From: a virus | Lineage: Duplodnaviria > Caudoviricetes | Length of the DNA stretch: 64,000 nucleotides | Reading direction: 5' to 3' (one strand) | IMG/VR virus record: IMGVR_UViG_3300021339_000007 | Location: 16 to 64,015 of that record | In this document: one piece after another, positions 4,524 through 52,046 of the stretch | Numbering within the stretch: the first letter of the stretch is position 1 | How the letters are laid out: each line of letters opens with the position of its first letter | Made by a program: the position numbers and the translations under genes | The notes under the pieces: generated by a model | What the model saw: only the letters and a program-made list of their open reading frames with translations | What the model was told of the DNA's origin: nothing | Database searches by the model: none

Positions 4524-5273
4524 CTAAACTCCGTCGCTGGCCAGGATCTCCGCCCGGCGCGGATTGATCGGACAGCTCTCGGCCGTGATCGGCTTCGCAG
4601 GCTCGAACGTCACACCGTCCACCTCGAATGTATCACCGGCGACTACCGGCGGCAATTCCGCGTCCATGGCTTTAAGGTTCTCAAGAACCTCACGCGCCCG
4701 CTCGGTGGTGATCGTGACGTGGAAGCCCTCTTGAGGCTGCGGATCAGGCCCGGCGTTCCCGGAGCCGAAGAAGCCGTCCATCGGCAGAACGCCCTGCCCC
4801 TTCTCCATCGATGCGGCCATCAGCTTGATATCTCGCTGCCAGTAGCCATGCCGTTCGACAATGCAGCGGAACTCCTCAAGATCGTGACCGATCAGGTGCA
4901 GCACGACGTTGCCGTCATTGTCGTAGCGGGACCCGCAGTGCATCAGCTCATGATCCAGCAGCGCGCGGCGTTCGTGGGCTTCCATGTGACACCAGATCGG
5001 CTCTGAGATCACGATTGCGAAGAAGGGCTTAACCTTCTCTTCCTCCTCCTCGCGCCCGAAGAACGCCGCCAGGGAGGTCACCTTCTGTGCGGTGGCGGCC
5101 ACGGTCTTTCCGAGGCGTTTCTTCGTGTCGGAGCGGAACAGGAATTCAACGCGCACGTTGTGCTCATTGAGGTGTTTATGGAACTCGCCGATAATCGGCA
5201 GTGCCAACGCTTCCGCAGCCGGTGCCGGGGTAAACGTCGTAGGGGGTTTCTTCGGCTTCCTCACTCGTGGCAT
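4524..5273 (-). CDS. Putative phage metallopeptidase
   Basis: ALLDHELMH (HExxH) plus HDLEEF..IVERHG. Confidence 0.8.
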   Translation of the reverse strand: MPRVRKPKKPPTTFTPAPAAEALALPIIGEFHKHLNEHNVRVEFLFRSDTKKRLGKTVAATAQKVTSLAAFFGREEEEEKVKPFFAIVISEPIWCHMEAHERRALLDHELMHCGSRYDNDGNVVLHLIGHDLEEFRCIVERHGYWQRDIKLMAASMEKGQGVLPMDGFFGSGNAGPDPQPQEGFHVTITTERAREVLENLKAMDAELPPVVAGDTFEVDGVTFEPAKPITAESCPINPRRAEILASDGV

Positions 5274-19382: not shown

Positions 19383-19455
19383 TGCGGGGTGGGGCAGTTG
19401 GTAGCCCGCCTGGCTCATAACCAGGAGGTCGCCGGTTCGAGTCCGGCCTCCGCTA
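19383..19455 (+). tRNA. tRNA-Met(CAT), initiator (fMet)-type, CCA not encoded
   Basis: Full cloverleaf; CTCATAA loop; 1:72 mismatch; G11:C24; TTCGAGT T-loop. Confidence 0.9.
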
Positions 19456-24176: not shown

Positions 24177-25523
24177 ATGGGATACGTTATTCCAGATGCT
24201 ATCAAAACCTCGGTCGAAGAGGCTGTTAAAGGCAAATCGCTTGCTCAAGTCGTGAAATTGCGCGACGCGAAGATGGCGGAACTCGGTTCGGTCTTCGAGA
24301 AGAGCGACACCGGTCAGATGGACGAGAACGGCAACAAGATCTTCGACTTTACCAAGGGCGGCTATGCGCCGACCGAGGTCAAAACGCGCAACGACGAACT
24401 CACGGTGTTCGGTGAGAAGGTCGATGAGCTGAAAGCGAACGACGAAGCCTATAAGGCGTACCAGGCGCAAGTTCGCGAGCAGGGACGCGTCAGCAACCAG
24501 TTTGCCGGCGGCAACAACGGAGCGCAGCAGGACGACAAGGACAAGAACTCCTACGAGCGCCGAGAGGGGATCAAGTCGCTTGCAGCGGAGTTCGGCGCGA
24601 ACGAAGCCTATAAGTCCTGGAAAGAGAACAAGCAGGGCTGCGTCATCGAAATCAAGGACGGAGTTCCGGCTCTCCTGGACGGCGTAAAGACCACGATGAC
24701 GACCACGGCCGGCTATACGCCGTATGTGCCGCCGGATATGCGGGTAGTCTTGTCCGCTCAGCGCCGCATCATGGTTACGGACCTCATGCCGAACGTGGAT
24801 GTGAACAGCCAGTTCGTCGCGTTCGTCCAGGAGACAACCTTCACCAATAACGCGGCGGCCGTCGCTGAAGGCGCAACCAAGCCTGAGAGCGCACTGGTCT
24901 ACACTCGTGTGACGGCGCAAATGGGCAAGGTCGCGACCACGCTTCCGGTCACTCGCGAGCAGTTGATGTTCGTGAACGCAATGGAGGCGCTGCTGAAAAA
25001 TCGGCTCGGCTTCCAGGTGAGGTTGGAACTGGAGCGAGAAGTCCTGCTGGGTTCCGGATCCTCGCCTGAAATGCGCGGTATTCAGAACACGGTCGGTATC
25101 CAGACGCAGGCGCAGTCCACCGACGACGTGTTCACCGCAATACTCAAGGCAATCACCAAGGTCAACTCTACGGTCGGAATGGCGGATGCTTCCGCAATCG
25201 TCATGAACCCCAACAACTGGCTGACGGCCCGAACGGTCAAGGATACGACCGGCCGGTTCATTCTGGGTAATCCCGACGAGATCGGGCCGCCCCGGGTTTG
25301 GGGTCTGCCGGTCGTGGCGACTATCGCCGAGACTGCCGGCACCGCGCTGGTAGGGGACTTCCAGACCTATTCCGAGCTTGACCGCGGCATGGACCTGACG
25401 GTGGAACTCGGCTACATCAACGATGACTTCACCAAGAACATCGTCCGGATGCTGGCCGAACTCTTCGCAGTCGTCCTGGTCTATCGCCCGACCGCCTTCT
25501 GCACCGTCACCGGCCTGGCCTAA
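24177..25523 (+). CDS. HK97-fold major capsid protein
   Basis: VAEGATKPES, LLGSGS, MNPNNW..KDTTGRFI, WGLPVV, VYRPTAF. Confidence 0.95.
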   Translation: MGYVIPDAIKTSVEEAVKGKSLAQVVKLRDAKMAELGSVFEKSDTGQMDENGNKIFDFTKGGYAPTEVKTRNDELTVFGEKVDELKANDEAYKAYQAQVREQGRVSNQFAGGNNGAQQDDKDKNSYERREGIKSLAAEFGANEAYKSWKENKQGCVIEIKDGVPALLDGVKTTMTTTAGYTPYVPPDMRVVLSAQRRIMVTDLMPNVDVNSQFVAFVQETTFTNNAAAVAEGATKPESALVYTRVTAQMGKVATTLPVTREQLMFVNAMEALLKNRLGFQVRLELEREVLLGSGSSPEMRGIQNTVGIQTQAQSTDDVFTAILKAITKVNSTVGMADASAIVMNPNNWLTARTVKDTTGRFILGNPDEIGPPRVWGLPVVATIAETAGTALVGDFQTYSELDRGMDLTVELGYINDDFTKNIVRMLAELFAVVLVYRPTAFCTVTGLA

Positions 25524-28622: not shown

Positions 28623-28865
28623 ATGTCAGATACAAAAGAGCCATCGACCGCGCCCGCCGAAACGAAGACTGCGGCATCTGAAGAGCACGCTCCCACTCTG
28701 AAGCAAGTTGCAGCAGAGGCCCGCGCTAAGGCCGTCCGCAGCCTGGAGCGGATCATCAAGGATCTCCCGGAACCCGGAGACAGCGGCGACCTGCATCTCT
28801 CCGGCACGCGTGCGCAACTCCAGCACTGCATCGACCTCATCAATCTGCACCCGTCGCACGCTTAA
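28623..28865 (+). CDS. Hypothetical protein
   Basis: RBS; operon context. Confidence 0.55.
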   Translation: MSDTKEPSTAPAETKTAASEEHAPTLKQVAAEARAKAVRSLERIIKDLPEPGDSGDLHLSGTRAQLQHCIDLINLHPSHA

Positions 28866-28877
28866 GGATATACGACC

Positions 28878-29753
28878 GTGACAAACTATTCCGATTGGGG
28901 CGGTCCCGGCTCCGTCATCCTGAAGAAGACGCTCGGAAGCGGGCCCTTCACCTTGAACTCGCAGGTGACGATCCCCTCCGCGATCGTGCAGCCCTTCAAG
29001 CCGCTGAACACGACTTATCTGCAGGCGATCAATGCGGCGCAGGGAACCTCGCTGTCCGTGGCTGGCAACCAGACCCCGGCGATCGCGCTCCGAACCTATT
29101 ACAAGCCCACGTGGGGGACCGCGGCGCTGCTGAAATCGCTCATCCAGTTCCGTGACACGACCACTTTCTATACAGACCAGTTTGCGATGCAGGTCAAATC
29201 GCAGTATCGAACGCGGAAGTTCTCGAAGGGGCGATGTACGGGCCTTACGATCACGCATACCAAGCAGGGCAACCAGCCGGGGCCGATCATCGTCGATATG
29301 GGCTTCGTGTTCATCTATGGCGATCTAGGCGGCGCGCCCGACGATCCTTCGCCTCCGACGTTTTCGGCTGCAGCGACCGATGCGGGTCAGGCGACGAATG
29401 CGGGGCAGGTCGCGTGGGCCACGGCTACGCAGGTAAAGAGCTTCCAGCTGCAGATGAACTGCGTCCAGGAATATCAGTTCTCGGATAACAACACGCTCTT
29501 TGCTGACGATATCGCAACCGGACCTCCGGACGGCGGGCTCGCGCTCGTGCAGTCAGACAGCTACACCGCAGCGCCGACCACAACGGACACGCTGAGCCTC
29601 GGCGGGGTAGGCGCGGGAATAGCTATCGCTCTCAACTTGGACCTGCACACGCCGTTCACGCCGCAAGACGGCGGTTTTATCAAATACAACAGCGCGTTCA
29701 AACTTGCCAACTTGACCACCGGCGGAATTCCGTGGGACATCACGGCACTCTAA
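28878..29753 (+). CDS. Major tail tube protein
   Basis: 291 aa, beta-rich; directly before the frameshifted chaperone. Confidence 0.7.
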   Translation: MTNYSDWGGPGSVILKKTLGSGPFTLNSQVTIPSAIVQPFKPLNTTYLQAINAAQGTSLSVAGNQTPAIALRTYYKPTWGTAALLKSLIQFRDTTTFYTDQFAMQVKSQYRTRKFSKGRCTGLTITHTKQGNQPGPIIVDMGFVFIYGDLGGAPDDPSPPTFSAAATDAGQATNAGQVAWATATQVKSFQLQMNCVQEYQFSDNNTLFADDIATGPPDGGLALVQSDSYTAAPTTTDTLSLGGVGAGIAIALNLDLHTPFTPQDGGFIKYNSAFKLANLTTGGIPWDITAL

Positions 29754-29762
29754 GGAGAAGAC

Positions 29763-30299
29763 TTGAAGCAGGCGAAGATTTTTATTATCAATAATGGCGA
29801 AGACCCATACGCGCTCCTAGATTCCGACGCCAACTTCTATGCCGTTGCTGACTGGGAGCTAAAGACGATCAAGAAACCCCCGGAGGAATTGGAGAAGGAC
29901 ACGAACGGAAAGGGTCGATGGCTGACCCTGGAACTCAAACCGGCAAAGTCGGGGCTTGACCGCGAAGCGAAACAGCGGTGCCTGGTTGGGGATGCACTGA
30001 CAGGGTTCAGGAATGACACTCTGCTGTTGCCCGGCAACCAGTTCGAATTGTTCGTTTCGAGTTGGCGGTGGGCAGACCGCGACGGCGACGACCCTCCGAA
30101 GCTGAAGGCCCCAACCGTTGATGTATTCGAATCCTTACATCCGAACGTAGCGGATAGGATCAGAATGACGCTGGATTGGCACATCCGGCCTAACATCTCG
30201 GTAGACGCTGATTTTTTTTCCGGATTGAGCGATCTGTCCACGCAGTCCTTGGAATCGAACCCTGCCAAATCCGAGCCGACGACCTCCACCCCGGAGTAA
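29763..30299 (+). CDS. Tail assembly chaperone (gpG-like)
   Basis: Position; T8 slippery run at 30212-30219. Confidence 0.7.
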   Translation: MKQAKIFIINNGEDPYALLDSDANFYAVADWELKTIKKPPEELEKDTNGKGRWLTLELKPAKSGLDREAKQRCLVGDALTGFRNDTLLLPGNQFELFVSSWRWADRDGDDPPKLKAPTVDVFESLHPNVADRIRMTLDWHIRPNISVDADFFSGLSDLSTQSLESNPAKSEPTTSTPE

Positions 30300-30511
30300 G
30301 GCTGTTCCTGGAAGAGCGGGCCGGAATGCCGCCGTTCTACCGTTCTAGGGAAAACATGGACGTGGAGACGCACGAGGTTTACCTGCATTGCCGGGGCATG
30401 GAGTTAGAGGCGCAGCAGGCAGACTCACCTCAGGAACCGGCACAGGGCGAAGTCCCAGCGCCGGACTTGTTCGACCTGGAGGCATATGGGCCGATGAACG
30501 TCGGGCTTTAA
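30212..30511 (+). CDS. -1 frameshift extension (gpGT-like)
   Basis: The -1 frame is open from the T run (FRIERSVHAV...) into MPPFYRS... and ends at TAA 30511. Confidence 0.7.
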   Translation, partial: FFFRIERSVHAVLGIEPCQIRADDLHPGVRLFLEERAGMPPFYRSRENMDVETHEVYLHCRGMELEAQQADSPQEPAQGEVPAPDLFDLEAYGPMNVGL

Positions 30512-30555
30512 ACGCCTTTGCCCGTGGGAGGAAAGCGTTACCGGGGTAACAGTTT

Positions 30556-30846
30556 TTAGCCTTCCCAGACAAGCGGACGCCAATCGGGAGGAATGATACC
30601 ATCTCGAATAGCGTTCGAGATCATGCCTCTATGCCGAAAATCAGCGCGGAGAACATGACAGCGGCGGCATAAAGTTCGCAAGTTTGATAGTTTGTTCGTC
30701 GCATTCTTGCCTGATTGGATGTGGTCAATGTGGCAAGTGTCGATTTCTAAGGGCGTCTGACAGCGGACGCACTTTCGCCCGTCGCGCTGCCAGACTTTAA
30801 CTCGAATAGCGTCCCATATTTCTTTCGGAGGTCGTTTTTTAGGCAC
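30556..30846 (-). CDS. HNH endonuclease directly downstream of pentamer array 1
   Basis: RDGRKCVRC..HIDHI..N..SNLRTLCRRCH; probable GTG start at 30846. Confidence 0.88.
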   Translation of the reverse strand: MPKKRPPKEIWDAIRVKVWQRDGRKCVRCQTPLEIDTCHIDHIQSGKNATNKLSNLRTLCRRCHVLRADFRHRGMISNAIRDGIIPPDWRPLVWEG

Positions 30847-30847
30847 T

Positions 30848-30950
30848 CTTTCAAACCCTTGTCTCGCCTTGCCTAACCCGTACACGCCAAGGCCCGCCGT
30901 AACTCGCCACGCCGGACCGTGTCAAGCCGGACCCGGTAGTACCCTAGCCC
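30848..30950 (-). ncRNA. Pentamer array 1 (GGY/GNY + NN), putative guide RNA
   Basis: gg|gct ag|ggt ac|tac cg|ggt cc|ggc tt|gac ac|ggt cc|ggc gt|ggc ga|gtt ac|ggc gg|gcc tt|ggc gt|gta cg|ggt ta|ggc aa|ggc ga|gac aa|ggg tt|tgaaag. Confidence 0.8.
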
Positions 30951-30957
30951 AATTGAG

Positions 30958-31563
30958 CTAGGATTCTGGAAGGATGTCAAACGATTCGACCGTGAAGCGG
31001 CCAAACCCTACCGACCGACCATCGGCCAAGCCGACAAGTCTGCCGGCATCGATCAATACAGTTTCCATCTGAGTTCTATTGACGACCGTCTTATCAAACA
31101 GCATATGGAATGTAGTTTCCCAACCGGGAGCGGCCGCGATCCGATAGCGAACGTTTCGGCCTTTCGTTGCGGGGTTCTTTACACTACAAATGTGCATGTA
31201 AACCGACTGGCTTGCCTCGGTCGGGATTGGTTCAGGCGGTACGACCAAGGGTTTGCCGTCGCGAGTAAACAGGATACGCTCATCATCGATCTGGAGCGTA
31301 GCAGCGACAGCGGTCTGAATGGAACCGCGTCCCGACTTGGTGTATTTCGCTGCATCACGACACATGCCGAAAATGTAAGTCGGATGCACAAACAACTGCC
31401 TTTCTGCGGTCATAAGGACCGTCTTTTTCCATTCTTCGGGGTCGTTACCCGCAACGCCGGTTCGCTCTTGCTTTTCGAGCGGAATCGCGTCGGGGCCGAA
31501 CTGGTGCCAGAGAATAGACCGAGTACCTTTGATTCTGACGCTTGCCTTGATGACGTTTGCCAT
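30958..31563 (-). CDS. Stand-alone Cas7/RAMP-like protein
   Basis: N-terminal strand VRIKGTRSIL; P..IFGM helix; C-terminal Gly-rich loop GLADGRSVGFGRFTV typical of RAMPs. Confidence 0.7.
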   Translation of the reverse strand: MANVIKASVRIKGTRSILWHQFGPDAIPLEKQERTGVAGNDPEEWKKTVLMTAERQLFVHPTYIFGMCRDAAKYTKSGRGSIQTAVAATLQIDDERILFTRDGKPLVVPPEPIPTEASQSVYMHICSVKNPATKGRNVRYRIAAAPGWETTFHMLFDKTVVNRTQMETVLIDAGRLVGLADGRSVGFGRFTVESFDILPES

Positions 31564-31610
31564 GAGAATCTTTCTGCCTGCCTACAATGCCGACAGGCGG
31601 GCGGTTTCGA

Positions 31611-31916
31611 CTAGATCAGTAATCCTGCGGCGCGGCAAGCATTGATAGCCTGCACCCTGTTGCAAACAGCGAGCTTCTTGTAAGCGTTCGATATGTGATA
31701 ATCGACCGTCCTTTTGCAAACGTATAGCTGATCGGCAATTTCCTTGTTGCTCAATCCAGTAGCGACAGCAGTAAGAACGACGACCTCTTGACGGGTAAGA
31801 GGCAAACCAGTCTCATCTTTTACTGATGGAACGTGAGGCTTACGGGCATTGGTCGGGCGGGCCTGAAGCCCCGCGAGTGACGTACAGTTCTCGAAGCGTG
31901 TAGCGATATTATTCAT
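31611..31916 (-). CDS. LuxR/GerE-type HTH regulator
   Basis: LTRQE..GLSNKEIADQLYVCKRTVDYHISNAYKKL.V.NR. Confidence 0.9.
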   Translation of the reverse strand: MNNIATRFENCTSLAGLQARPTNARKPHVPSVKDETGLPLTRQEVVVLTAVATGLSNKEIADQLYVCKRTVDYHISNAYKKLAVCNRVQAINACRAAGLLI

Positions 31917-32187
31917 TGGTGTCTCTTTCCGGCCGACCATCGACCAACCGTATACTGTGGATTAGGTCCGCCATTTTTTCAGCGCAATAGGCATCGATTA
32001 CCGCAACAAGGGCGGCATAACTAGCGTCTACGGCAGCATCCGCCAACCGGACGCGCAACGCCTGCTCATCTTGATAGTTGCGAGTCCTCATCCTTGCGCG
32101 CCGTACCTCGCAGTTGATATGCTCTCCTGCGGCGGTCTGAAATGTCGGGGACTCGCTGATCGATGTGCAGTACTTGTTATCCGGCAT
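31909..32187 (-). CDS. Hypothetical protein
   Basis: AAGGA RBS; overlaps the LuxR gene start. Confidence 0.55.
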   Translation of the reverse strand: MPDNKYCTSISESPTFQTAAGEHINCEVRRARMRTRNYQDEQALRVRLADAAVDASYAALVAVIDAYCAEKMADLIHSIRLVDGRPERDTNE

Positions 32188-32204
32188 TGTCCTTACCCTT
32201 CCTA

Positions 32205-32558
32205 TCAGGCAGCAAGGGTAAGGACAAAGGACCGACCTCGATAGGTCGGCTCTATCGTGCACGAGCAGCGGCAATCGCTGGACTCGCAGAAATCGCAGAA
32301 GTCTTCGGGCGAGGTTTCCGGCCTGCGGGCCATGTGTTCTGCGATTGCCCGTTCCTGGCGCTCGATCTGGTTCGTACGCGCTTCGCGGAGTTCGGCATTC
32401 GCAGGATCACATTCGCTGAAGCGATCCTTGAGGATTTGAAGGTAGCTCTGCATCGATTGCAGGTTCTCTGCCCAGGTGGCGGGCTGGACGGTGCCGCGAT
32501 GGTGGCCGCGATAATCGCGGGATCGAACACGGGCAGAAAGTGTGGTTGCGGTTGGCAT
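32205..32558 (-). CDS. Hypothetical protein with C-terminal Cys cluster
   Basis: AAGGAG RBS; CDFC..C.C.C. Confidence 0.6.
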   Translation of the reverse strand: MPTATTLSARVRSRDYRGHHRGTVQPATWAENLQSMQSYLQILKDRFSECDPANAELREARTNQIERQERAIAEHMARRPETSPEDFCDFCESSDCRCSCTIEPTYRGRSFVLTLAA

Positions 32559-32661
32559 TTCGTTGGTCTCCTTTGCGGTAAAGGGTAAACTGAAAGCGTC
32601 CCTTTGCGGGATGCCGGGAGGTGGTCTCAACACCGACCGGCTTATTTAGTTTACTGTGTAT

Positions 32662-32690
32662 ATTATACACCTATATTGTGTATACGTCAA
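32662..32690 (-). promoter_or_regulatory. Sigma70 promoter driving the Cas7-like/HNH operon
   Basis: TTGACG-N17-TATAAT. Confidence 0.8.
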
Positions 32691-32748
32691 GCCCGAATCC
32701 GGTGTTTTCAACATTTATTTTTGTGTATTTGTGCTGTATACTATCAGC

Positions 32749-32937
32749 ATGGAGAACACTGAACAGTCTGCACGCAAACGAGGCCCGGTGCCGGGGCCAA
32801 AAACAGAACGTTATCAGGTTCTTTTAGACCCAGACGCAGCCGATTGGGGAAAGCGGCAACCGGGCGGCCTTTCAGAACTGCTTCGTAAGCTTTTGAGCGA
32901 TGCGTACGAAAAAGCGAATTCTAGTCCATCGGGCTAG
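32749..32937 (+). CDS. Small ribbon-helix-helix-like regulator
   Basis: RGPVPGPKTERYQVLLD..GLSELLRKLL; TATACT just upstream suggests a leaderless transcript. Confidence 0.65.
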   Translation: MENTEQSARKRGPVPGPKTERYQVLLDPDAADWGKRQPGGLSELLRKLLSDAYEKANSSPSG

Positions 32938-33027
32938 AATGAACGGGCCATGGTGAGCCAAGGTTAGGTCTGGTCCGGCGGGGTCTGGCTTGGCGCGGCG
33001 GGGCAAGACAAGACAAGGGTTTGAAAG
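32931..33027 (+). ncRNA. Pentamer array 2 (GGY/GNY + NN), putative guide RNA
   Basis: g|ggc ta|gaa tg|aac gg|gcc at|ggt ga|gcc aa|ggt ta|ggt ct|ggt cc|ggc gg|ggt ct|ggc tt|ggc gc|ggc gg|ggc aa|gac aa|gac aa|ggg tt|tgaaag; same ends as array 1. Confidence 0.8.
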
Positions 33028-33089
33028 CAGGAATTGAATAGGTGCAGAGTCGAATAGCGCGTCAACTCGGTTGCATTAGAGAAGACGCG

Positions 33090-33278
33090 ATGAACACACT
33101 ACTTTGGGTTGTCGTAGGATTGTTGATATCCGCAGGTGGTATAGGCCTACTCTTCGCCGTACTGCTCGCTATGAACACTAACGAATCGGGCGCGGTAGTT
33201 GCATTCATTATCGGTGCGGCCGGCGTGGTGTCGTTGTTCACAGGTTTAATCGGAGCATTTATACTGCACCGGAAGTGA
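33090..33278 (+). CDS. Small two-TM membrane protein
   Basis: Two hydrophobic segments. Confidence 0.6.
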   Translation: MNTLLWVVVGLLISAGGIGLLFAVLLAMNTNESGAVVAFIIGAAGVVSLFTGLIGAFILHRK

Positions 33279-33305
33279 AGCGGTTTATCAGGTTCACAAG
33301 GAACA

Positions 33306-33336
33306 GGAGCGATCTCAATTAGAGATCGCTCCTTCT
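33306..33336 (+). terminator. Hairpin, probable terminator
   Basis: GGAGCGATCTC-AATTA-GAGATCGCTCC. Confidence 0.55.
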
Positions 33337-33522
33337 AGTTTGGCGGTGAAGCTTGCGCAAACGAGTTGAAGTTGAATTAGACATAAGCGAAGCTGCCCAT
33401 CGGCTTCAGACACTTATCTGCTCTTCCTGATCCTGCTTAGAAAATAACAGTGCGCGATAATTTGCAGGCTGCCACCCCGTCCGAGATTAGGGCGGGTTTT
33501 TTGTTGCCTGCTCGGAACAATC

Positions 33523-36500
33523 ATGGCTCGTAAAGTCGTTCAGGTAGATTTAGACATATCGGCTGCAGTTGCGAAGGTGCAAGAACTTGCAGCGCAACTC
33601 GACAAGCTGCGAACGGAGTCTAACATCTCGATCGGGGCACAGGGCTTGCCTGGAAACGGCTTAATGGGCACGTTTTCAAGCTCATCCGGTCCCGGCATCA
33701 ATCCGGCCACGACCGGCGGCGTCACCATGTCCGGTGGCAGCGCGTCGGTCTCCGTACCTGGAAACGTCGCAGCAGGGCCGCCATCTCTGGGGGTCTTCGG
33801 ATCGGGATTCGGAACCGGGCAAATGAACATGGTTTCCGGCACGGTTGCGGGCACACCTGCTAACGGCCGGGTTCCGTCGGATAGCGAATACGATTTCAGT
33901 GTGTCGTCTGGGTCCGCGCCGGATCAGCCTGGTTGGGCGGACGGCGAACAGTTCGCATATGTGAGAGGGCACTTTCGGCGTCACCCGCGCACGGGCAGAG
34001 CAGGTGGAGCAGGAGCACCTCCACCTCCATCGGCTACCGTATTTACCGAAGCCAGTGCGCCTTCTGATGATGACATGGGCGCACCCCCCATGCCGGTCCC
34101 TCCAACCGGCGGGGCAGGTGGGGGTGCTGCTCGTCGGCGTCGGCGCGCACGCGGTAACAATAACCGAGACGATGATGATTTCAACTTCGAGGACTACATC
34201 GGCTTTCGTACGGCCCGAGAGTTGGCACGTGGTGCGTCAGACGTTGCGAACGAATATACACGGTACACGATTTCGGGAGAACCCAATCCGCTAGCCCTGG
34301 GACAGAGCGCAGGTCTTCTAGGGGGAGGACTCTTTGCAACCGGACTGATTGCAGGCGGGATGGGGCTAGGGCCAGCGGGCATGATCGGTGCGATAGCGGC
34401 CCCGCTTATTGGCGCGGGCGTTAACGCATTTCAGGCCCCCGCCATTCAGCGACAGAACATTGCGGCATCCTTTTCTGTTTATGGTGCAGCTTCAGGGCAA
34501 GATCCCAATGGCTTAGCGTCCGGCGCGGCTCAGATCGCCTCGCAGCAGAATTCAATGTTCTATGCGCAAGGCTATGCGCAGAACGTTGCGACCGGTAACC
34601 CGGTGCGCGACTTTATCGGCGGCGCCTGGGCGACAGCGGATAACTACCTGCGTCGATGGGGAATGCACGTTGGTACCGACCAGATCAGCGCGCAGGACGT
34701 TGCTGCAATAGAACAGGCGGTTGGTTCGGCTGCATCCTCTGTTGGAGAGACGTTGACGCCTGAACAGTTGAGAAGTGCTTCTCAGCGATACGTGAGCATG
34801 GGCGGCCCAACTGGCAAGCCACTGTCTCAGGCTTCTTCTGCGGCAGTGTCGCGGTTGGGAGAGAGCGGCGGTAACCTGTTTTCGCTCTCATTGCGGGTTG
34901 GGGCGGATGCTACAAAGCTCGCAGCGAATATGCTTGGAATGCCCTTCGACGTCGAACAGGGTCGAAAAGATGCATGGGATTATCAAATAGGACAATCCCA
35001 TATCGCAGGCGCGGAAGCGATCGCATCCGGTCTTGGATCAGAATACGAACGCTCCGCCTTCAGCGGTAAGACCACGTTTGCACGCCGGCCAGAATTCGAT
35101 CGGATGCAGGCGGCACTGAGGGCTGATTATGACCTGACGGCCAGCGAGTATAACCGAATGCAGTCCGGCCCGCAGCGTGACAGTGTAGAAGCGAAGGGGC
35201 TATTCGCGCGTGGGCAGCAAGACCTTCTCCAGATAGATCGAAACCAAGCGCAACGATCCGAAGGGATTGTTGGAGACATCAGCGCAGCAGGGCGGGCAAA
35301 CCTTGCGGCGGCGAACTATCAGACGAGTATGGCAAACCTCTTCGGGGGTGAGGCGGACTTGAGGCGGGCCGGGGCTTCCACATTCGCAACGCTCATGGAT
35401 ACGGCGAATCGCTTAGAGGCCACAATCGGACTGCCGGGACAAACCGCGCAGCAGATGTACGATCAGCGCGCACTGGTCTCCGCAACCAGAGGCCAAGCTT
35501 TGCAACAGCGCACGCAACTGGTAGATGCGGGGCAACAACGGCGCTTCTTGTCTCAGGACGTGAATGTCAGCGTCTTCGCGGCGGACCTTACCGCTTCTGA
35601 GATGTTCGGAACCGATTCGCAGTTGGGTGCTACATTTGCGGCGGCGGTTGGAAGTCAAGATTTTATCGCAAACGATGCGTTCACTGCAAGCCAAAACCAG
35701 AGTGCCTCAGTTGAGCAAAAGGCACGGGACCAAGTTCGGAGTGCGAATGCCAGACAGCAAAGCCTGAATCTTCGGGCGCGGAGTCTGGACGTATTGCTCT
35801 CTCGGATTGGTGGCCGTGCTTCCATAGCCGAAAGTGACGCGTCCAACGTGCTGCTCGGGGCGGCCTACGGCGACGCCGGGGATGTAGAGCGAGCGGGCGC
35901 AGGCTTCATTGGAGCATTAGGTTCGGAAAGAGCGTCCCTTCAGGATCAGCTTCGCCAAGGCGGATTGACGGTTGAGCAGGACATTCGGCTGCGAAGCCGG
36001 GTTTCCTCGATTGAAGGGCAACAGATACGCGCGCAAATCGACGTAAGGGACACTGTGCTTGGCAGAGTAGAGACCACTGCCAACCTTGCGAACCAAGCAG
36101 CCTCCAACGAACTTAATCGCTCACTACGCCTTGGCACGGGAAGTGACGTTCGGAGCGCATCGGGCGGAATGCTTTCCTCCCTTGGCAATGAGTATTCCAG
36201 GCTGCAGGAGCAAATCGACCGAGGCGGATTGACCTTCGATCAAAGAAGCCGCGTACAGGAGCGGCAGCAGAGCATCGGTCGTTCGGTCTTCGACATTGGT
36301 CAAAACGCCATTGATGAATCAATCAGGCGCGATGATATGTCAGGCTTCGGCTTGGCGTCGATAGAGAACAGCGCCGCACGAAGGATAGCCTCTTTGATGC
36401 CCTACGGCTCAGGCGGCAGATTGAGTGCAGATGTTCGAACCATCCGTACTAATCAACAGCAACTCGGCGTCCTTCAACAACGGGAAGAGCAGTTGCGCCG

Positions 36501-36999
36501 AAGTGGAAACTTGTCTCCTGAGCGGCTGTCTTCCATCCGGGAGCAAGAGGCAAACCTTGGCGTGGAAATCGCGTCCGGCATTGCCGGCTTGACGGAAAAT
36601 GTGGCCGACTACCTTCCGGGTCTTTCTGCAGGCCGTGGCGCGAACTACTCTATGTACGACAGTCTCCAGCTTGCGGCGCTACGTGTCAATCGAACCGGCT
36701 CCAATATCCGGTCCTTCGGAGCGATCAACGGCGCCCAGGCGGCCCGGCAAGCGCATGCGTGGGACCAATTGTCCGGAGGCATGATCTCCGGCGGCCCTCA
36801 TTCGCTGACTCAGGGAATCAACCAGGGCCGCGGGACAGGCGCCATGGAGATCCTTCTGACGCAGATCCGCGATACGCTGCAACGCATCGGCAGCGGCAAT
36901 ACCGGCTCTACGCAAAGAATCGGCGAATCTGCCGGACAGGCGGCGGGGCAGATCAGTCAGCGCGATGTTGGATACGGATACGGCGGGCGCAAGCTCTAA
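33523..36999 (+). CDS. Tape measure protein
   Basis: 1158 aa, Ala/Gly/Gln-rich with helical repeats (GGLT.EQ); longest gene, at the tape-measure position. Confidence 0.75.
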   Translation: MARKVVQVDLDISAAVAKVQELAAQLDKLRTESNISIGAQGLPGNGLMGTFSSSSGPGINPATTGGVTMSGGSASVSVPGNVAAGPPSLGVFGSGFGTGQMNMVSGTVAGTPANGRVPSDSEYDFSVSSGSAPDQPGWADGEQFAYVRGHFRRHPRTGRAGGAGAPPPPSATVFTEASAPSDDDMGAPPMPVPPTGGAGGGAARRRRRARGNNNRDDDDFNFEDYIGFRTARELARGASDVANEYTRYTISGEPNPLALGQSAGLLGGGLFATGLIAGGMGLGPAGMIGAIAAPLIGAGVNAFQAPAIQRQNIAASFSVYGAASGQDPNGLASGAAQIASQQNSMFYAQGYAQNVATGNPVRDFIGGAWATADNYLRRWGMHVGTDQISAQDVAAIEQAVGSAASSVGETLTPEQLRSASQRYVSMGGPTGKPLSQASSAAVSRLGESGGNLFSLSLRVGADATKLAANMLGMPFDVEQGRKDAWDYQIGQSHIAGAEAIASGLGSEYERSAFSGKTTFARRPEFDRMQAALRADYDLTASEYNRMQSGPQRDSVEAKGLFARGQQDLLQIDRNQAQRSEGIVGDISAAGRANLAAANYQTSMANLFGGEADLRRAGASTFATLMDTANRLEATIGLPGQTAQQMYDQRALVSATRGQALQQRTQLVDAGQQRRFLSQDVNVSVFAADLTASEMFGTDSQLGATFAAAVGSQDFIANDAFTASQNQSASVEQKARDQVRSANARQQSLNLRARSLDVLLSRIGGRASIAESDASNVLLGAAYGDAGDVERAGAGFIGALGSERASLQDQLRQGGLTVEQDIRLRSRVSSIEGQQIRAQIDVRDTVLGRVETTANLANQAASNELNRSLRLGTGSDVRSASGGMLSSLGNEYSRLQEQIDRGGLTFDQRSRVQERQQSIGRSVFDIGQNAIDESIRRDDMSGFGLASIENSAARRIASLMPYGSGGRLSADVRTIRTNQQQLGVLQQREEQLRRSGNLSPERLSSIREQEANLGVEIASGIAGLTENVADYLPGLSAGRGANYSMYDSLQLAALRVNRTGSNIRSFGAINGAQAARQAHAWDQLSGGMISGGPHSLTQGINQGRGTGAMEILLTQIRDTLQRIGSGNTGSTQRIGESAGQAAGQISQRDVGYGYGGRKL

Positions 37000-37008
37000 G
37001 GCGGGGAA

Positions 37009-39240
37009 ATGCCGAACAGTTTCTTCAGCCAGACTTCGGCGCTCGTGACGGACATTCCAAGCGCTTACGGAACGGTCACATCTCCTGCCATCGCGATGAC
37101 GGTCGTCGTAGAACAGGCACATGACGAGAGCCGGTCCTATATCGACGGCCGTTTCCACAAGAAGCGAGGTTACGCGCAGGGGCAAGACAAGCCGTTCCTG
37201 CAAGACACTTACATTGTCGGAACGGGCGGCAGAACGGGCCGGGCCTTCAATATCATCGCGGGCTCCGCCTACGATAGCTGGCGCAGTCCCTACTCGGATA
37301 AGTACGGAATCTATTGGGCGGACGGCACTGCCGGTGAGACCTTCGAGGCGGTCAGCGATACGACGACGGACGGGATAGAAGCCGCTGAGATCATCGTCAG
37401 CCGGGGCGTCCCGCCGATCGGATACACTCGGACCCGCGCCAACACAAACGCCTACCTGCATCTGGCGTACCAGTCCTACCCGTACGACTACCGTGTCGCG
37501 TTTGAGGACGGGCAGGCTATCCGCCTAGACGGCACAATCGACGGCGGAAGCTCGTGGCAGCCTCTCATGGTGGCCAATGGGCTGATCACGGAGCGTTACT
37601 TCGCCGCGCAGCAGGATCATGCGTGCAGGCTGCGCTGTTGGTTTGATGCCGAAACGCAGGAGCTCTGGGTCGAGATTGGAGACAGCGGGCAAGACGGCGC
37701 CCTTCACCATTGGGCAGGTGCCGGCGCGACAGGGAAAATACGGCTGGTCGGCATGAACGGCTGGGCCGCGCTGGAGTATTACCCGCTCCAACACGCTGCC
37801 TTGACCGTAAATGTCGCGTCGCGGCCTCTGGTGTCGGTCCCGCACACGAATGCGGCTTCGGCGCGCGTTGTCGGGAACAGCCTGACGCCCACTCCCGCGG
37901 ATCAGGTCACTGAGACCGCATGGGCGACAGATGGGATCAACTTCGAATTCAGCGCGCAAGCGAGTAATCCCAACACCGCGGTCGCCCCAAAAATCAGTGA
38001 TATGACGCTGCTGGTGGATGAAACGTGGAGCGATCGGATCGACGGCGATATCTTCTCATTCACGCAGATCAATCAGCTTCGTACTACCCTGACTCGCGAA
38101 AGCCAGACATGGGACGATAACAACCGCTGCATTCTGACGTCCGGTCAGCTCTACATCAACAATCATGATGGGCGCTATAGCGGCGCCTTCGGCAACTTCG
38201 CCTGTTCGATCTCCGCGCAGCTTAACCAGGCACGGCAGGGCCGGATCACGCATCGGGGCGTCTGGTTTCCGCGCTGCATCGGAATCGCGGGCGCAGGCGA
38301 GCAGGGTATCGGGTTCGAGCGGGCGGACCCGCACCGCATGATCTCTCTGCCGTTTGCGGACAAGCGCGTCCTGATGATGGTGGATCTTGAGAATGAGGTG
38401 ATTTACGACGGGTGGCCGCTGTTCGCAGCGGTGCGGCATATCGCGCGCAAAGGCAACATCCATCCACTGTTTCTGCAGACCATTCCGTATGAGCCCGACG
38501 GGCCGGCCTCGCCGAGCTGCACGACGCCTGTTCTGCCGAGGGGGACGGGGAACAATCCGAAGTACCGATTCCAGCCCGGAATGAGCTGCTGGAGCGTGCT
38601 GTTGCTGCTCGCAGCCGACAGCGGGCTGCCGGTTGCAGGCGGCGCCTATTCCATTCCGTACTTTACCGGCTTCGACAACCAGGGGCAGCTTCGGTTTGAG
38701 CCCTATGATCCGGCCGCAACGCTGCCGCTGGTGATGTACACCTCGAATAACAACCTGGTCGATGGAAACACGGTTTTTCCAATCATTGGGCGGCTCCAAC
38801 GGTGGGCATCGACCGCGCAGATGCGATCCGATATCACGGTGCAGGGCCTGGACCCGATCTCTTATCAGCTCGCTCAGGTGCACGCTCAGACGGCGCTCGC
38901 GGTGCGCAAGGCGATTGGTTATCGGCATACCACCCTGGAGCGGAGTGCGCGATATGGATCCGGGACCTCGCTGATCGATACTGCGCGGACGGTGGTGTCG
39001 GTGTCGTCGCTTGCTTCAGAGGTCGTAAGGTTCGAGACACTCTTCTCGCCGTGGCTGAACGCGGGCGCGACCATGCTGGTGAGTGATCGACAGCTGGGTG
39101 TCGGAACCTATGTTGTAACGAACATTGAAAGCGCTTATGGGTCCGATATCCACGGCAGGAGCGGGCAGCGGCAGTGCTACAGCACCATCACAGGCCGCAA
39201 TGTGACGGCATATCCTACTTCGCTCGGGGGCCTTTTCTAA
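37009..39240 (+). CDS. Tail tip / hub protein
   Basis: Follows the tape measure gene; FDNQGQLRF and C-terminal hub-like pattern. Confidence 0.65.
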   Translation: MPNSFFSQTSALVTDIPSAYGTVTSPAIAMTVVVEQAHDESRSYIDGRFHKKRGYAQGQDKPFLQDTYIVGTGGRTGRAFNIIAGSAYDSWRSPYSDKYGIYWADGTAGETFEAVSDTTTDGIEAAEIIVSRGVPPIGYTRTRANTNAYLHLAYQSYPYDYRVAFEDGQAIRLDGTIDGGSSWQPLMVANGLITERYFAAQQDHACRLRCWFDAETQELWVEIGDSGQDGALHHWAGAGATGKIRLVGMNGWAALEYYPLQHAALTVNVASRPLVSVPHTNAASARVVGNSLTPTPADQVTETAWATDGINFEFSAQASNPNTAVAPKISDMTLLVDETWSDRIDGDIFSFTQINQLRTTLTRESQTWDDNNRCILTSGQLYINNHDGRYSGAFGNFACSISAQLNQARQGRITHRGVWFPRCIGIAGAGEQGIGFERADPHRMISLPFADKRVLMMVDLENEVIYDGWPLFAAVRHIARKGNIHPLFLQTIPYEPDGPASPSCTTPVLPRGTGNNPKYRFQPGMSCWSVLLLLAADSGLPVAGGAYSIPYFTGFDNQGQLRFEPYDPAATLPLVMYTSNNNLVDGNTVFPIIGRLQRWASTAQMRSDITVQGLDPISYQLAQVHAQTALAVRKAIGYRHTTLERSARYGSGTSLIDTARTVVSVSSLASEVVRFETLFSPWLNAGATMLVSDRQLGVGTYVVTNIESAYGSDIHGRSGQRQCYSTITGRNVTAYPTSLGGLF

Positions 39241-51602: not shown

Positions 51603-52046
51603 ATGTACGCAATATTGGGCGCAGACAGCGCGGTTCCGTTCTTCTACCAGCAGGCCAACCTGAAGACCCCGGCCGACAAGCCGGATCTATTCACCTGGAT
51701 CAATGTGAGCAACACCGGCCCGAACGGCTCTCCGCAAGGCCCGGTTCAACTCGGCGAGGCCTGGCCCGGCATCTCTTTCGGCGGCGCTCCGGTATCGCTG
51801 GACTTCCCTTCCGAGGGTGAGTTCGTCATCCAGGCGGCAGGCGGATACGGCGCCCAAGGCTTCGGACAGGCGGCCACTGCTTTGATTAAGGTGCATGCCG
51901 ACCGGACGATCGAGTTTGTCATTCGGGACGGCGTCGGAGCGACCCTGCTGGCCGGCACGCACTCCTACGACAGCATGGCGGAGTATTGGGACAGGGGCCT
52001 GGGCGGAATGATGGCCGATGAGGTCTCGGTCGCTTCGCCGGTCTAA
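51603..52046 (+). CDS. Hypothetical protein
   Basis: AAGGAG RBS; last gene of the late operon. Confidence 0.6.
   Translation: MYAILGADSAVPFFYQQANLKTPADKPDLFTWINVSNTGPNGSPQGPVQLGEAWPGISFGGAPVSLDFPSEGEFVIQAAGGYGAQGFGQAATALIKVHADRTIEFVIRDGVGATLLAGTHSYDSMAEYWDRGLGGMMADEVSVASPV

What the first reader, a model, noticed from the sequence alone, without database searches (positions are those of the whole stretch)
30848..30950. Array 1 dinucleotides decode to a diverged tail-tube segment (every third base skipped)
The NN string CC TT AC CC GT GA AC GG TT GT CG TA AA, read as codon positions 1-2, gives P-F/L-T-P-V-D/E-T-G-F/L-V-R-Y-N/K. The phage's own tail tube gene at 29652-29690 reads CCG TTC ACG CCG CAA GAC GGC GGT TTT ATC AAA TAC AAC (PFTPQDGGFIKYN). 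Nine of 13 dinucleotides are identical and in frame, and two mismatches are conservative (I/V, K/R). A rough hand estimate of a chance hit in 128 kb is about 1e-3 before window-choice correction. Inference: the guide targets a related phage's tail-tube allele, is insensitive to wobble substitutions, and mismatches protect self. The RNA would carry sense-strand bases, implying pairing with the DNA template strand rather than mRNA.
Basis: partly seen in the sequence, partly recalled or inferred. Interest (0 to 1): 0.95.

Follow-up and report, generated by a model that had tools for sequence, protein, structure and literature searches.

The report
VIPR guide RNA aimed at sibling phages
The five-base repeat tract is a guide RNA of a VIPR system (a CRISPR-like phage weapon first described in 2026), and its variable letters spell the tail-tube gene version carried by related phages rather than the phage's own.

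Summary
Read with one base skipped, their best match in the window is 29652-29690, in frame in the 291-aa gene: 9 of 13 units.

The tract is not a new kind of thing. The upstream 201-aa gene is a Vipr homologue (solved SUSP1 Vipr, profile E 1.7e-9). Three 2026 preprints describe VIPR: a Cas7-like protein plus GGY/NN guide RNAs that read DNA by this "1 nt skip" rule at codon positions 1-2.

Two of the five related tail-tube proteins fit the guide at 12 of 13 codons, against 9 for self. No shuffled guide of 2000 exceeded 7. Array 2 behaves likewise with tape-measure relatives: 9 of 11 against 7 for self.

Relatives' DNA could not be fetched, and expression and activity are untested.

An HNH nuclease gene lies next to vipr in 4 of 4 related loci. 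Both guides point at genes flanking the cassette, so RNA-guided homing is possible but untested.

The scan has noted VIPR on other DNA before (477 notes). Verdict: a new member of a known kind.

The parts
30866..30930 (-). vrRNA 1 guide region. It holds 13 NN-GGY pentamers whose NN string is CC TT AC CC GT GA AC GG TT GT CG TA AA.
   Evidence: All 13 of 13 dinucleotides were found at period 5 on the minus strand. The units are printed.
30856..30935 (-). Full pentamer tract of array 1. It has 16 units: one 5' unit (CGGGT) before the guide, and two 3' units (GAGAC AAGGG) that belong to the sequence shared with array 2.
   Evidence: A run of 16 G at period 5 begins at 30933.
30848..30864 (-). A 17-nt 3' element (AGACAAGGGTTTGAAAG) shared by both arrays. 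It is the candidate short vrRNA tail and ends 1 nt before the GTG start of the HNH gene.
   Evidence: The 15-mer core occurs exactly twice in the window, at the ends of the two arrays; 0 of 100 shuffles gave 2 matches. No stable fold is predicted downstream (z 0.21).
30941..30964 (-). A 10-bp hairpin just 5' of array 1. It overlaps the vipr stop codon, and its stem contains CTAG on both arms.
   Evidence: The fold is. Array 2 has an equivalent 10-bp hairpin, also.
30958..31563 (-). vipr: a 201-aa Cas7-like RAMP protein with a C-terminal G-loop, GLADGRSVGFGRF.
   Evidence: - The profile of 35 homologues hits PDB 36pp_D 'SUSP1 Vipr protein' at E 1.7e-9 over residues 8-190.
- The single sequence hits the same chain at E 1.7e-4.
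- The AlphaFold2 model has pLDDT 88.2.
- The top Foldseek matches are roughly 200-aa chains of type III-A Csm complexes, E 2.5e-9, TM 0.55.
- 1834 homologues have E <= 0.001.
30556..30846 (-). HNH nuclease gene, the likely vipr-accessory (vap) gene.
   Evidence: Pfam HNH scores E 1.1e-8. The gene lies next to vipr in 4 of 4 related loci at 54-62% identity. Those alignments start at residue 14 of the listed ORF, which places the start at the GTG at 30846.
31611..31940 (-). LuxR/GerE-type HTH gene upstream of vipr in the same leftward operon.
   Evidence: Pfam GerE scores E 4.1e-18. No homologue was found in the four related loci.
32662..32690 (-). Sigma-70-like promoter for the leftward operon (LuxR, vipr, array 1, HNH).
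   Evidence: TTGACG-17-TATAAT matches 11 of 12 positions. This is a consensus match only.
32950..33004 (+). vrRNA 2 guide region. It holds 11 NN-GGY pentamers whose NN string is AT GA AA TA CT CC GG CT TT GC GG.
   Evidence: The sequence is, the units, and the run of 15 G at period 5 from 32947.
33011..33027 (+). The same 17-nt 3' element at the end of array 2.
29652..29690 (+). The phage's own near-target of vrRNA 1, in the tail-tube-like gene 28878..29753. It matches 9 of 13 units (PFTPQDGGFIKYN).
36601..36633 (+). The phage's own near-target of vrRNA 2, in the 1158-aa tape-measure-like gene 33523..36999. It matches 7 of 11 units and 18 of 22 bases (VADYLPGLSAG).
33476..33496 (+). Intrinsic-terminator-like hairpin with a T run that closes the cassette before the tape-measure gene.
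   Evidence: which also lists a 12-bp hairpin at 33305-33333.

Best explanation
The tract at 30856-30935 (minus strand) is a VIPR guide RNA gene (vrRNA). It belongs to a cassette (about 30556-33500) made of vipr, an HNH accessory gene and a second, divergently oriented vrRNA.

By the published mechanism, Vipr protomers polymerise along the RNA. Each one holds a GGY triplet and presents the adjacent NN dinucleotide. The filament then pairs with one strand of double-stranded DNA, skipping every third base. In a gene this means it reads codon positions 1-2 and ignores wobble changes.

Here the 13 NN of vrRNA 1 spell P-F/L-T-P-V-D/E-T-G-F/L-V-R-Y-N/K. That is the C-terminal tail-tube segment as carried by sibling phages (PFTPQDTGFVRYN). 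The 9-of-13 match to the phage's own gene (PFTPQDGGFIKYN) is the homology that remains between the two alleles. The four mismatched units probably keep the phage from targeting itself.

vrRNA 2 does the same with the tape-measure gene.

Shown here: the array, the Vipr homology, the HNH linkage and the better fit of sibling alleles at protein level. Taken from the preprints: filament assembly, DNA pairing and silencing. Inferred: that these RNAs are made, that sibling phages are bound (and, given the HNH, possibly cut), and that self is spared.
For: Array.
- 13 of 13 dinucleotides lie at period 5 on the minus strand.
- There are 16 and 15 units with invariant G in the two arrays, against a next-best run of 9.
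- Both arrays end in the same 17-mer.

Protein.
- Profile hit to the solved SUSP1 Vipr at E 1.7e-9 over nearly full length. The single sequence gives E 1.7e-4, with the G-loop aligned.
- Confident model (pLDDT 88.2) whose best solved matches are Csm-complex chains.
- All 4 related loci found with this protein carry NNGGY arrays beside it and an HNH gene.

Code.
- The published 1-nt-skip rule places the skip base at the wobble position.
- In this window a skip of 1 gives 9 units, against at most 7 for skips of 0, 2 and 3.

Target.
- Codon-compatible units out of 13: self 9, P0122 12, P0124 12, P0123 11, P0125 10, P0126 5.
- 0 of 2000 shuffled guides reached 12 in the relatives (largest 7).
- Codon positions 1-2 are fixed by the amino acid for every residue at the site except Arg. 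P0122 and P0124 must therefore match at least 23 of 26 bases, and 24 if Arg is CGN. That is above the preprint's 80% criterion.

Second array.
- Codon-compatible units out of 11: self 7, P0129, P0130 and P0131 9 each, P0128 8.
- All four relatives read MEN where self reads VAD and the guide spells I/M-D/E-N/K.
- 0 of 2000 shuffles reached 9 (largest 8).
Against: - Arg could be AGR.
- Exact gapped patterns found nothing. The 13-unit pattern gave 0 hits in viral contigs. The pattern with unit 5 left free gave 0 hits in metagenome contigs, viral contigs and genome contigs.
- Unit 5 (GT = Val) is unmatched in the three closest relatives, which have Gln. Only P0125 has Val there, and it fails at other units.
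- The relatives are homologues of self, so a chance match to self would carry over to them. What counts is only the gain of 3 units.
- The self-match alone is not robustly significant: 717, 10 and 421 of 1000 shuffles reached it, depending on scoring.
- No expression data exist. The runs found are DNA contigs only.
- No structured 3' tail like that of SUSP1 is predicted (z 0.21 and 1.40).
- Array 2 matches the phage's own gene at 18 of 22 bases (82%). That would pass the preprint's threshold for a target, whereas the preprint found no self hits in its own sets.
- A rough test of 12 arrays from the four related loci, run against the window and those loci, found no match above shuffles. The unit phase was not checked for all of them.
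Confidence: 0.8

Rival explanations
1. RNA-guided homing or marker exclusion. The vipr-HNH-vrRNA cassette is a mobile element. Its two guides direct the HNH nuclease to sibling-phage alleles of the genes on either side of its own insertion site. A co-infecting sibling would then be cut and repaired from the cassette-bearing genome, which spreads the cassette. This extends the best explanation rather than contradicting it.
For: - The cassette sits between the genes after the tail tube and the tape-measure gene, on the opposite strand, with its own promoters and terminators.
- The two decoded sites lie about 0.9 kb to the left and 3.1 kb to the right of the cassette (about 30556-33500), in genes whose sibling alleles fit better than self.
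- An HNH gene lies beside vipr in 4 of 4 related loci.
- P0124 (tail tube) and P0129 (tape measure) both list a longest contig of 9336 bases, so one sibling may carry both target alleles.
- Earlier notes of this scan describe the same pattern on other DNA (e1-6100478, e1-6059674). Those notes are unchecked.
Against: - It was not shown that any sibling lacks the cassette. Their DNA could not be fetched.
- No nuclease activity or contact between Vipr and the HNH protein was shown.
- The sites are kilobases, not tens of bases, from the insertion point.
- The preprint places nuclease-bearing types mainly in host defence islands.
Confidence: 0.2
2. Self-regulation. The imperfect matches to the phage's own tail-tube and tape-measure genes are the real targets. 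The cassette would damp or time late-gene transcription, for instance in the lysogen.
For: - Both best matches in the window fall in the phage's own late genes, in the codon register.
- Array 2 matches self at 18 of 22 bases, above the preprint's 80% cut-off.
- The cassette has sigma-70-like promoters and runs partly against the late operon.
Against: - Sibling alleles fit better than self for both guides: 12 against 9 of 13, and 9 against 7 of 11.
- The preprint reports that perturbing NN pairing abolished silencing, and that no guide hit its own contig at 80% or more.
- A linked nuclease would make self-targeting costly.
Confidence: 0.08
3. Coincidence. The arrays are VIPR guides, but the resemblance to the tail-tube gene is a chance match and the true target lies elsewhere and is unsampled.
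For: - With all 16 units and local scoring, 717 and 421 of 1000 shuffles reached the self-match under two of three schemes.
- No exact gapped hit was found in three large collections.
- The array 2 pattern with one free unit hit two unrelated cellular genes, about the number expected by chance.
Against: - 0 of 1500 permutations reached 9 of 13.
- Relatives improve the fit at exactly 3 of the 4 mismatched units, and 0 of 2000 shuffles came near.
- An independent second guide shows the same behaviour in another gene.
- By simple arithmetic, three changed residues all landing on the guide's dinucleotide has a probability of about (1/15)^3 per guide. This is my inference, not a tool result.
Confidence: 0.03

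Closest known systems
VIPR systems (Vipr protein plus vrRNA). The reference system is type II of Escherichia phage SUSP1, together with the Pseudomonas fulva prophage (bioRxiv 10.64898/2026.04.26.720920, .720927 and 10.64898/2026.10.15.759431).
   Same: - A lone Cas7-like protein of about 200 aa with a G-loop.
- Guide RNAs built of 9-16 YNNGG repeats with variable NN and a shared 3' element.
- Targets read with one skipped base in the codon register.
- Targets in competing mobile elements that share structural-gene homology.
- Carried by a phage.
   Different: - Only distant sequence similarity to SUSP1 Vipr (single sequence E 1.7e-4).
- The accessory gene is an HNH nuclease, not a DNA-binding Vap1.
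- There are two single vrRNAs in divergent orientation, each behind a 10-bp hairpin.
- The shared 3' element is only 17 nt, with no predicted pseudoknot.
- The targets are sibling-phage alleles of the phage's own tail genes rather than a satellite or a prophage regulator.
Nuclease-associated VIPR types III and V of the same preprint.
   Same: The accessory gene is a predicted nuclease. The legend of the preprint's fig. S21 lists an HNH domain among type II, III and VII Vap proteins, and the text says that types III-V encode enzymes. The guides target viral sequences.
   Different: The preprint describes these types as enriched in host defence islands and acting for the host. Here the system sits inside the tail module of a phage record and is aimed at sibling phages. 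The type of this locus could not be assigned, because figures and supplementary tables were not available.
Class 1 CRISPR effector backbones (Cas7/Csm3 filaments on crRNA).
   Same: RAMP fold; the best solved structural matches are Csm-complex chains (E 2.5e-9, TM 0.55). One protomer binds per fixed number of guide bases, and the thumb excludes bases from pairing (the preprints' statement).
   Different: - The period is 5 nt, with 2 paired and 3 sequestered bases, instead of 6 nt with 5 paired.
- The target skips 1 base per 3.
- No cas genes were seen among the cassette ORFs scanned.
- The guide is encoded as such, not as a spacer between repeats.
Free-standing HNH homing endonucleases of phages (marker exclusion in T-even phages; from general knowledge, not from a call).
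   Same: A small HNH gene in a cassette inserted between conserved structural genes, with recognition aimed at the sibling allele of a neighbouring gene.
   Different: Here recognition would be supplied by an RNA-protein filament rather than by the nuclease's own DNA-binding domain. Cleavage and spread are untested.

Membership tests
VIPR system | A Vipr protein: a stand-alone RAMP (Cas7-like) homologue with a G-loop. | tested here: met
   - Profile hit to PDB 36pp_D 'SUSP1 Vipr protein', E 1.7e-9, residues 8-190 against 5-190.
- Single sequence E 1.7e-4, with GLADGRSVGFGRF aligned to GVGDWRP-RFGRF.
- AlphaFold2 pLDDT 88.2; Foldseek top hits are Csm complexes.
VIPR system | Candidate vrRNA: at least 4 (typically 9-16) tandem YNNGG repeats in the intergenic DNA beside vipr. 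| tested here: met
   16 units begin 22 nt after the vipr stop. A second array of 15 units lies 1.4 kb away on the other strand.
VIPR system | GGY is conserved while NN is hypervariable between vrRNAs. | tested here: met
   The two arrays share the G/GG/Y positions but have different NN strings. Arrays in the 4 related loci show the same pattern.
VIPR system | An invariable, structured 3' tail after the repeats (a pseudoknot in the SUSP1 clade). | tested here: inconclusive
   A 17-nt element is shared by both arrays. The 63 nt from that element onward show no stable fold (z 0.21 and 1.40), and the sequences diverge after the 17-mer.
VIPR system | Natural targets follow the 1-nt-skip rule with the skip base at the codon wobble position, in competing mobile elements, at 80% NN match or more. 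| tested here: met
   At protein level only. P0122 and P0124 are compatible at 12 of 13 codons, which means at least 23 of 26 bases. Self is 19 of 26 (73%). 0 of 2000 shuffles reached this. Skip 1 beats skips 0, 2 and 3 in the window. Sibling DNA was not seen.
VIPR system | A vipr-accessory (vap) gene with a DNA-directed function in the same locus. | tested here: met
   Pfam HNH E 1.1e-8. An HNH homologue lies next to vipr in 4 of 4 related loci.
VIPR system | The vrRNA is expressed as an RNA of about 100 nt and is bound by Vipr. | not testable with these tools
   Only DNA contig runs hold this sequence. No RNA data are available.
VIPR type III (nuclease-associated) | Placement in the Vipr phylogeny and a type-specific vap cluster. 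| not tested
   The type definitions are in the preprint's Fig. 5A and its supplementary data, which were not available. Only the HNH association is shared.
TRAP-like ring-protein binding site (considered early) | (G/U)AG triplets spaced by 2-3 nt, and a TRAP-family protein gene. | tested here: not met
   The triplets are GGY. No TRAP-family domain appears among the 15 ORFs scanned against Pfam. The neighbouring gene is a RAMP instead.
Free-standing homing endonuclease cassette | The cassette is absent from sibling genomes, whose allele is cleaved near the insertion site. | not testable with these tools
   Sibling contigs could not be fetched (closed; searches found nothing).

The most novel reading that the evidence does not exclude
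This is a phage-borne, HNH-armed VIPR cassette that behaves as an RNA-guided homing element. Its two guides spell the sibling-phage alleles of the tail-tube and tape-measure genes that bracket its own insertion site. A co-infecting sibling would be cut on both sides and repaired from the cassette-bearing genome, which would drag the cassette and its linked resistant alleles into the sibling. No paper in the held library contains both 'vrRNA' and 'homing'. Two earlier notes of this scan report the same pattern on other DNA.
Probability: 0.2. Interest if true: 0.75.

Novelty: new member of a known kind. Interest (0 to 1): 0.45.

Why it matters
That code was published in 2026 as the VIPR mechanism, so the mechanism itself is not new.

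This locus adds a natural example in which the target can be named. Both guides of a soil phage fit the sibling-phage versions of its own tail-tube and tape-measure genes better than its own copies.

This bears on three points:
- How such systems tell self from near-self. Self differs at 4 of 13 units for guide 1 and 4 of 11 for guide 2, and guide 2 still matches self at 82% of bases.
- Nuclease-linked VIPR systems also occur inside phages, not only in host defence islands.
- The placement raises a testable idea that VIPR-HNH cassettes spread by RNA-guided homing.

Tried and rejected
1. Rfam (gathering thresholds), Tandem Repeats Finder and ARAGORN found nothing at the array. The repeat is too degenerate for TRF.

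2. Early ideas were a TRAP-like ring-protein binding site, lambda nut/put-like antitermination elements flanking a regulatory module, RHH iterons, two-tier G-quadruplexes and a rut site on the opposite strand. All were dropped once the neighbouring protein proved to be a Vipr homologue.

3. A third 'GGC at period 5' stretch at 51738-51787 lies inside a 147-aa ORF. A 9-unit G run at 25016 lies inside a 448-aa ORF. Both are taken as chance.

4. The 15-mer tail motif gave 115 stretches in viral contigs. None had a period-5 G tract upstream, so all were chance hits.

5. Attempts to obtain sibling DNA all failed:
- The search for related loci with the tail-tube protein and with P0130 in viral contigs and metagenome contigs found no relatives.
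- Megablast and tblastn against GenBank phages found no match.
- Sequencing runs held only pieces identical to the window, with no sibling variants. Parts of the stretch without cover in those runs are not evidence.

6. Exact gapped patterns gave 0 hits. The array 2 pattern gave two genome hits, both in unrelated cellular genes: IEKYLPGLVAG in a Lentzea contig and IEKYLPGLCAG in a Leptospiraceae MAG. About one hit was expected by chance on my own estimate.

7. Twelve arrays from L118-L121 were decoded and searched against the window and those four loci. None exceeded shuffles. The unit phase was taken from the first G of each run and is wrong for some arrays, so this is no evidence either way.

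8. There is no sign that the self sites carry more amino-acid differences than the rest of the proteins: 3 of 13 at 86% overall identity, and 5 of 11 at 65%. This is my arithmetic, so targeted escape is not shown.

9. Supplementary tables and figures of the preprints were closed. They may list this clade, its type and its targets.
Full report
**What is in the sequence.** At period 5 all 13 dinucleotides are found starting at + coordinate 30930 and running down to 30866. The tract is a run of NN-G-G-Y pentamers with 16 consecutive units carrying G at the third position. A second tract of the same kind, with 15 units, lies on the + strand from 32945. No other G run at period 5 in the window exceeds 9 units. 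Both tracts follow a 10-bp hairpin and end in the same 17 bases, whose 15-base core occurs only at these two places in the record. Two weaker 'arrays', at 51738 and 25016, lie inside ORFs and are taken as chance.

Positions 29652-29690 read as quoted and are in frame in ORF 28878..29753. With one base skipped after each dinucleotide, 9 of 13 units and 19 of 26 bases agree. This is the best match on either strand of the window; the next best is 7.
- None of 1500 permutations of the string reached 9.
- 3 of 1500 random strings with the window's composition did.
- When all 16 units are used with local scoring, so that the 13 are not pre-chosen, the result depends on the scheme: 717, 10 and 421 of 1000 shuffles reached the observed score.
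- With 0, 2 or 3 skipped bases the best matches outside the array are 7, 6 and 6 units.

The self-match alone is therefore suggestive, not proof.

**What the element is.** The 201-aa ORF whose stop lies just before array 1 (30958..31563, minus) has no Pfam family and one PHROG of unknown function.
- It has 1834 homologues at E <= 0.001, mostly about 195 aa and 60-74% identical.
- A profile of 35 of them hits one solved structure, 36pp chain D, 'SUSP1 Vipr protein', at E 1.7e-9 over nearly the full length. The single sequence gives E 1.7e-4, with the C-terminal glycine-rich loop aligned.
- The AlphaFold2 model is confident (pLDDT 88.2).
- Its best solved structural matches are chains of about 200 aa from type III-A Csm complexes (E 2.5e-9, TM 0.55). 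I take these to be Csm3/Cas7; I did not check chain identities.

**What is in print.** A literature search for the PDB name led to three 2026 preprints. Of 10.64898/2026.04.26.720920 I read the outline and abstract, the Results, the Discussion and three Methods sections, plus passages found by word search. [quoted passage not shown]
- a stand-alone RAMP protein, Vipr;
- vrRNAs of 9-16 YNNGG repeats with conserved GGY, hypervariable NN and an invariable 3' tail;
- recognition of double-stranded DNA by a '1 nt skip rule', in which the skipped base usually falls on the codon wobble position;
- natural targets in competing phages and satellites, with 80% NN match as the working cut-off and no self hits;
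- seven types, of which III-V carry nucleases or helicases.

Of 10.64898/2026.04.26.720927 I saw the abstract and passages. Vipr protomers form a helical filament on the vrRNA, sequester each GGY and present NN. Target pairing skips every third nucleotide. Of 10.64898/2026.10.15.759431 I saw passages only. [quoted passage not shown]

**The locus.** The cassette spans about 30556-33500. It interrupts a + strand run of structural genes between the ORFs that follow the 291-aa gene and the 1158-aa gene.
- A near-consensus promoter at 32690..32662 (11 of 12) points leftward. It leads through a LuxR/GerE HTH gene (E 4.1e-18), vipr and array 1 to an HNH gene (E 1.1e-8).
- A weaker promoter points rightward. 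It leads through a 62-aa ORF, array 2 and a 78-aa membrane-like ORF to two terminator-like hairpins.
- Four loci from viral contigs encode Vipr relatives at 53-60% identity. All four have NNGGY arrays beside the gene, between one and six each.
- All four also have an HNH homologue at 54-62% identity. Those alignments begin at residue 14 of the listed ORF, which puts the HNH start at the GTG at 30846, one base after the shared 17-mer.
- The LuxR gene and the other cassette ORFs have no counterpart in those loci.

**Is the tail-tube reading right?** The 291-aa protein has no Pfam or PHROG hit. In the ESM Atlas, however, its nearest clusters are Phage_tube_2 tail-tube families (score 0.97; structure TM 0.77). 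This is a lead that fits its position. A search of 5.8 billion proteins found five relatives at 53-86% identity.

At the aligned site the sequences read:

| Protein | Site | Units compatible with guide 1 |
|---|---|---|
| self | PFTPQDGGFIKYN | 9 of 13 |
| P0122 | PFTPQDTGFVRYN | 12 of 13 |
| P0124 | PFTPQDTGFVRYN | 12 of 13 |
| P0123 | PFSPQDTGFVRYN | 11 of 13 |
| P0125 | AFTPVDPGFVLYN | 10 of 13 |
| P0126 | LYIPQDAGFVMSM | 5 of 13 |

The guide spells P-F/L-T-P-V-D/E-T-G-F/L-V-R-Y-N/K. None of 2000 shuffled guides exceeded 7 in the relatives. Three of the four units that mismatch self (Gly, Ile, Lys) are replaced in the close relatives by exactly the residues the guide spells (Thr, Val, Arg). 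Codon positions 1-2 are fixed by the amino acid for every residue at this site except Arg. The DNA of P0122 and P0124 must therefore match at least 23 of 26 bases, which is above the preprint's 80% line. Self is at 73%.

**The second guide behaves the same way.** I confirmed 7 of 11 units and 18 of 22 bases there, with 7 of the last 8 units matching. In shuffle tests, 66, 25 and 28 of 1000 reached the observed score. Four relatives of the C-terminal part were found. All read M-E-N where self reads V-A-D and the guide spells I/M-D/E-N/K. The compatible units are 9 of 11 in three relatives and 8 of 11 in one. No shuffled guide of 2000 reached 9.

Two independent guides thus each fit sibling alleles better than the phage's own genes.

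**What speaks against, and what is missing.**
- I never saw sibling DNA.
- Exact gapped patterns found nothing in the viral, metagenome or genome collections. The only two hits of the array 2 pattern are in unrelated cellular genes, about the chance expectation.
- Unit 5 of guide 1 (Val) is unmatched in the three closest relatives.
- No RNA data exist. The runs holding this DNA are soil metagenome contigs that are identical to the window wherever they cover it.
- The predicted folds give no structured tail.
- Guide 2's 82% base match to self would count as a target by the preprint's criterion. Either the three mismatched 5' units suffice for protection or there is some self-interaction.
- The self sites do not differ from the siblings more than the rest of the proteins do, so directed escape is not shown.

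**Comparison with what is known, and novelty.** The mechanism, the code and the idea that wobble skipping defeats synonymous escape are all in print. This scan has noted VIPR loci many times on other DNA (477 notes in at least 367 genomes). This is a new member of a known kind.

The features that differ from the characterised SUSP1 and P. fulva systems are:
- the HNH partner;
- two divergent single guides, each behind a hairpin;
- a very short shared 3' element;
- targets in sibling-phage alleles of the phage's own tail genes on both sides of the cassette.

The preprint assigns nuclease-bearing types mainly to host defence islands, whereas this one is inside a phage's structural module. The placement suggests RNA-guided homing or marker exclusion. 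No paper in the held library contains both 'vrRNA' and 'homing'. Two earlier unchecked notes of this scan (e1-6100478, e1-6059674) describe the same pattern elsewhere. I give that reading about 0.2, because neither cleavage nor absence of the cassette from siblings could be tested.

**Verdict.** The kind of system is already known. Interest is moderate.

Noticed in passing
window 36601-36633 (+) versus array 2 at 32950-33004: Guide 2 matches the phage's own tape-measure-like gene at 18 of 22 bases (82%), with 7 of the 8 tail-proximal units perfect. This would pass the preprint's 80% cut-off for a natural target, although the preprint reports no self hits in its own data sets.
   Followed up: partly
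window 30604-30613, 30802-30811 and 33050-33059 (+): The 10-mer TCGAATAGCG occurs three times on the + strand: inside the HNH gene, just after array 1's tail, and just after array 2's tail. It therefore has opposite orientation relative to the two arrays. It could be a regulator site. It was seen by eye and not tested against chance.
   Followed up: no
window 30844-30864 (-) and 33011-33044 (+): The shared 17-mer ends 1 nt before the GTG start of the HNH gene, and its AAGGG lies 9 nt upstream of that start. After array 2, a GTG-initiated 78-aa membrane-like ORF starts 14 nt downstream of the 17-mer. The 'tail' may double as a translation-initiation region, or the vrRNA 3' ends may lie inside these ORFs.
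   Followed up: no
L121:3532-4177, L119:4894-5137 and L120:2664-2729 plus 4996-5096: Related loci carry one to six arrays. In L121 six arrays stand in tandem, each preceded by a TGATACAAT-like extended -10 element and followed by a T run. In L119 two arrays each follow TGATATAAA. In L120 one array ends in a GC hairpin plus T run. Gene order varies: vipr-HNH-arrays in L118, L119 and L120, and vipr-arrays-HNH in L121 and in this window.
   Followed up: partly
window 28800-37100: Contig pieces identical to the window (0 other letters), including one across array 1 (30684-30949), occur in soil metagenome runs of three studies. One of the runs may be the source of this DNA. The phage and its guide are therefore stable across samples.
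   Followed up: partly
window 30941-30964 (-) and 32918-32940 (+): Each array is preceded by a 10-bp hairpin whose arms contain CTAG and which overlaps the stop codon of the upstream ORF. This could be a processing or 5'-handle signal. No equivalent was obvious in L119.
   Followed up: no
window 32640-32748: An AT-rich divergent promoter region carries repeated TGTGTATA-like words between the leftward and rightward operons of the cassette. It looks like an operator region for the cassette's own regulators, the LuxR HTH and the 62-aa ORF (weak DUF2239 hit, E 0.0012).
   Followed up: no
window 19383-19455 (+): A tRNA-Met gene (anticodon CAT) is the only Rfam or ARAGORN hit in the window.
   Followed up: no
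L122:4088-4119 and L123:4603-4634: The array 2 pattern with one free unit matches, in frame, IEKYLPGLVAG in a Lentzea contig and IEKYLPGLCAG in a Leptospiraceae MAG. Both are in cellular enzymes unrelated to tape-measure proteins. The number is about what chance predicts.
   Followed up: yes
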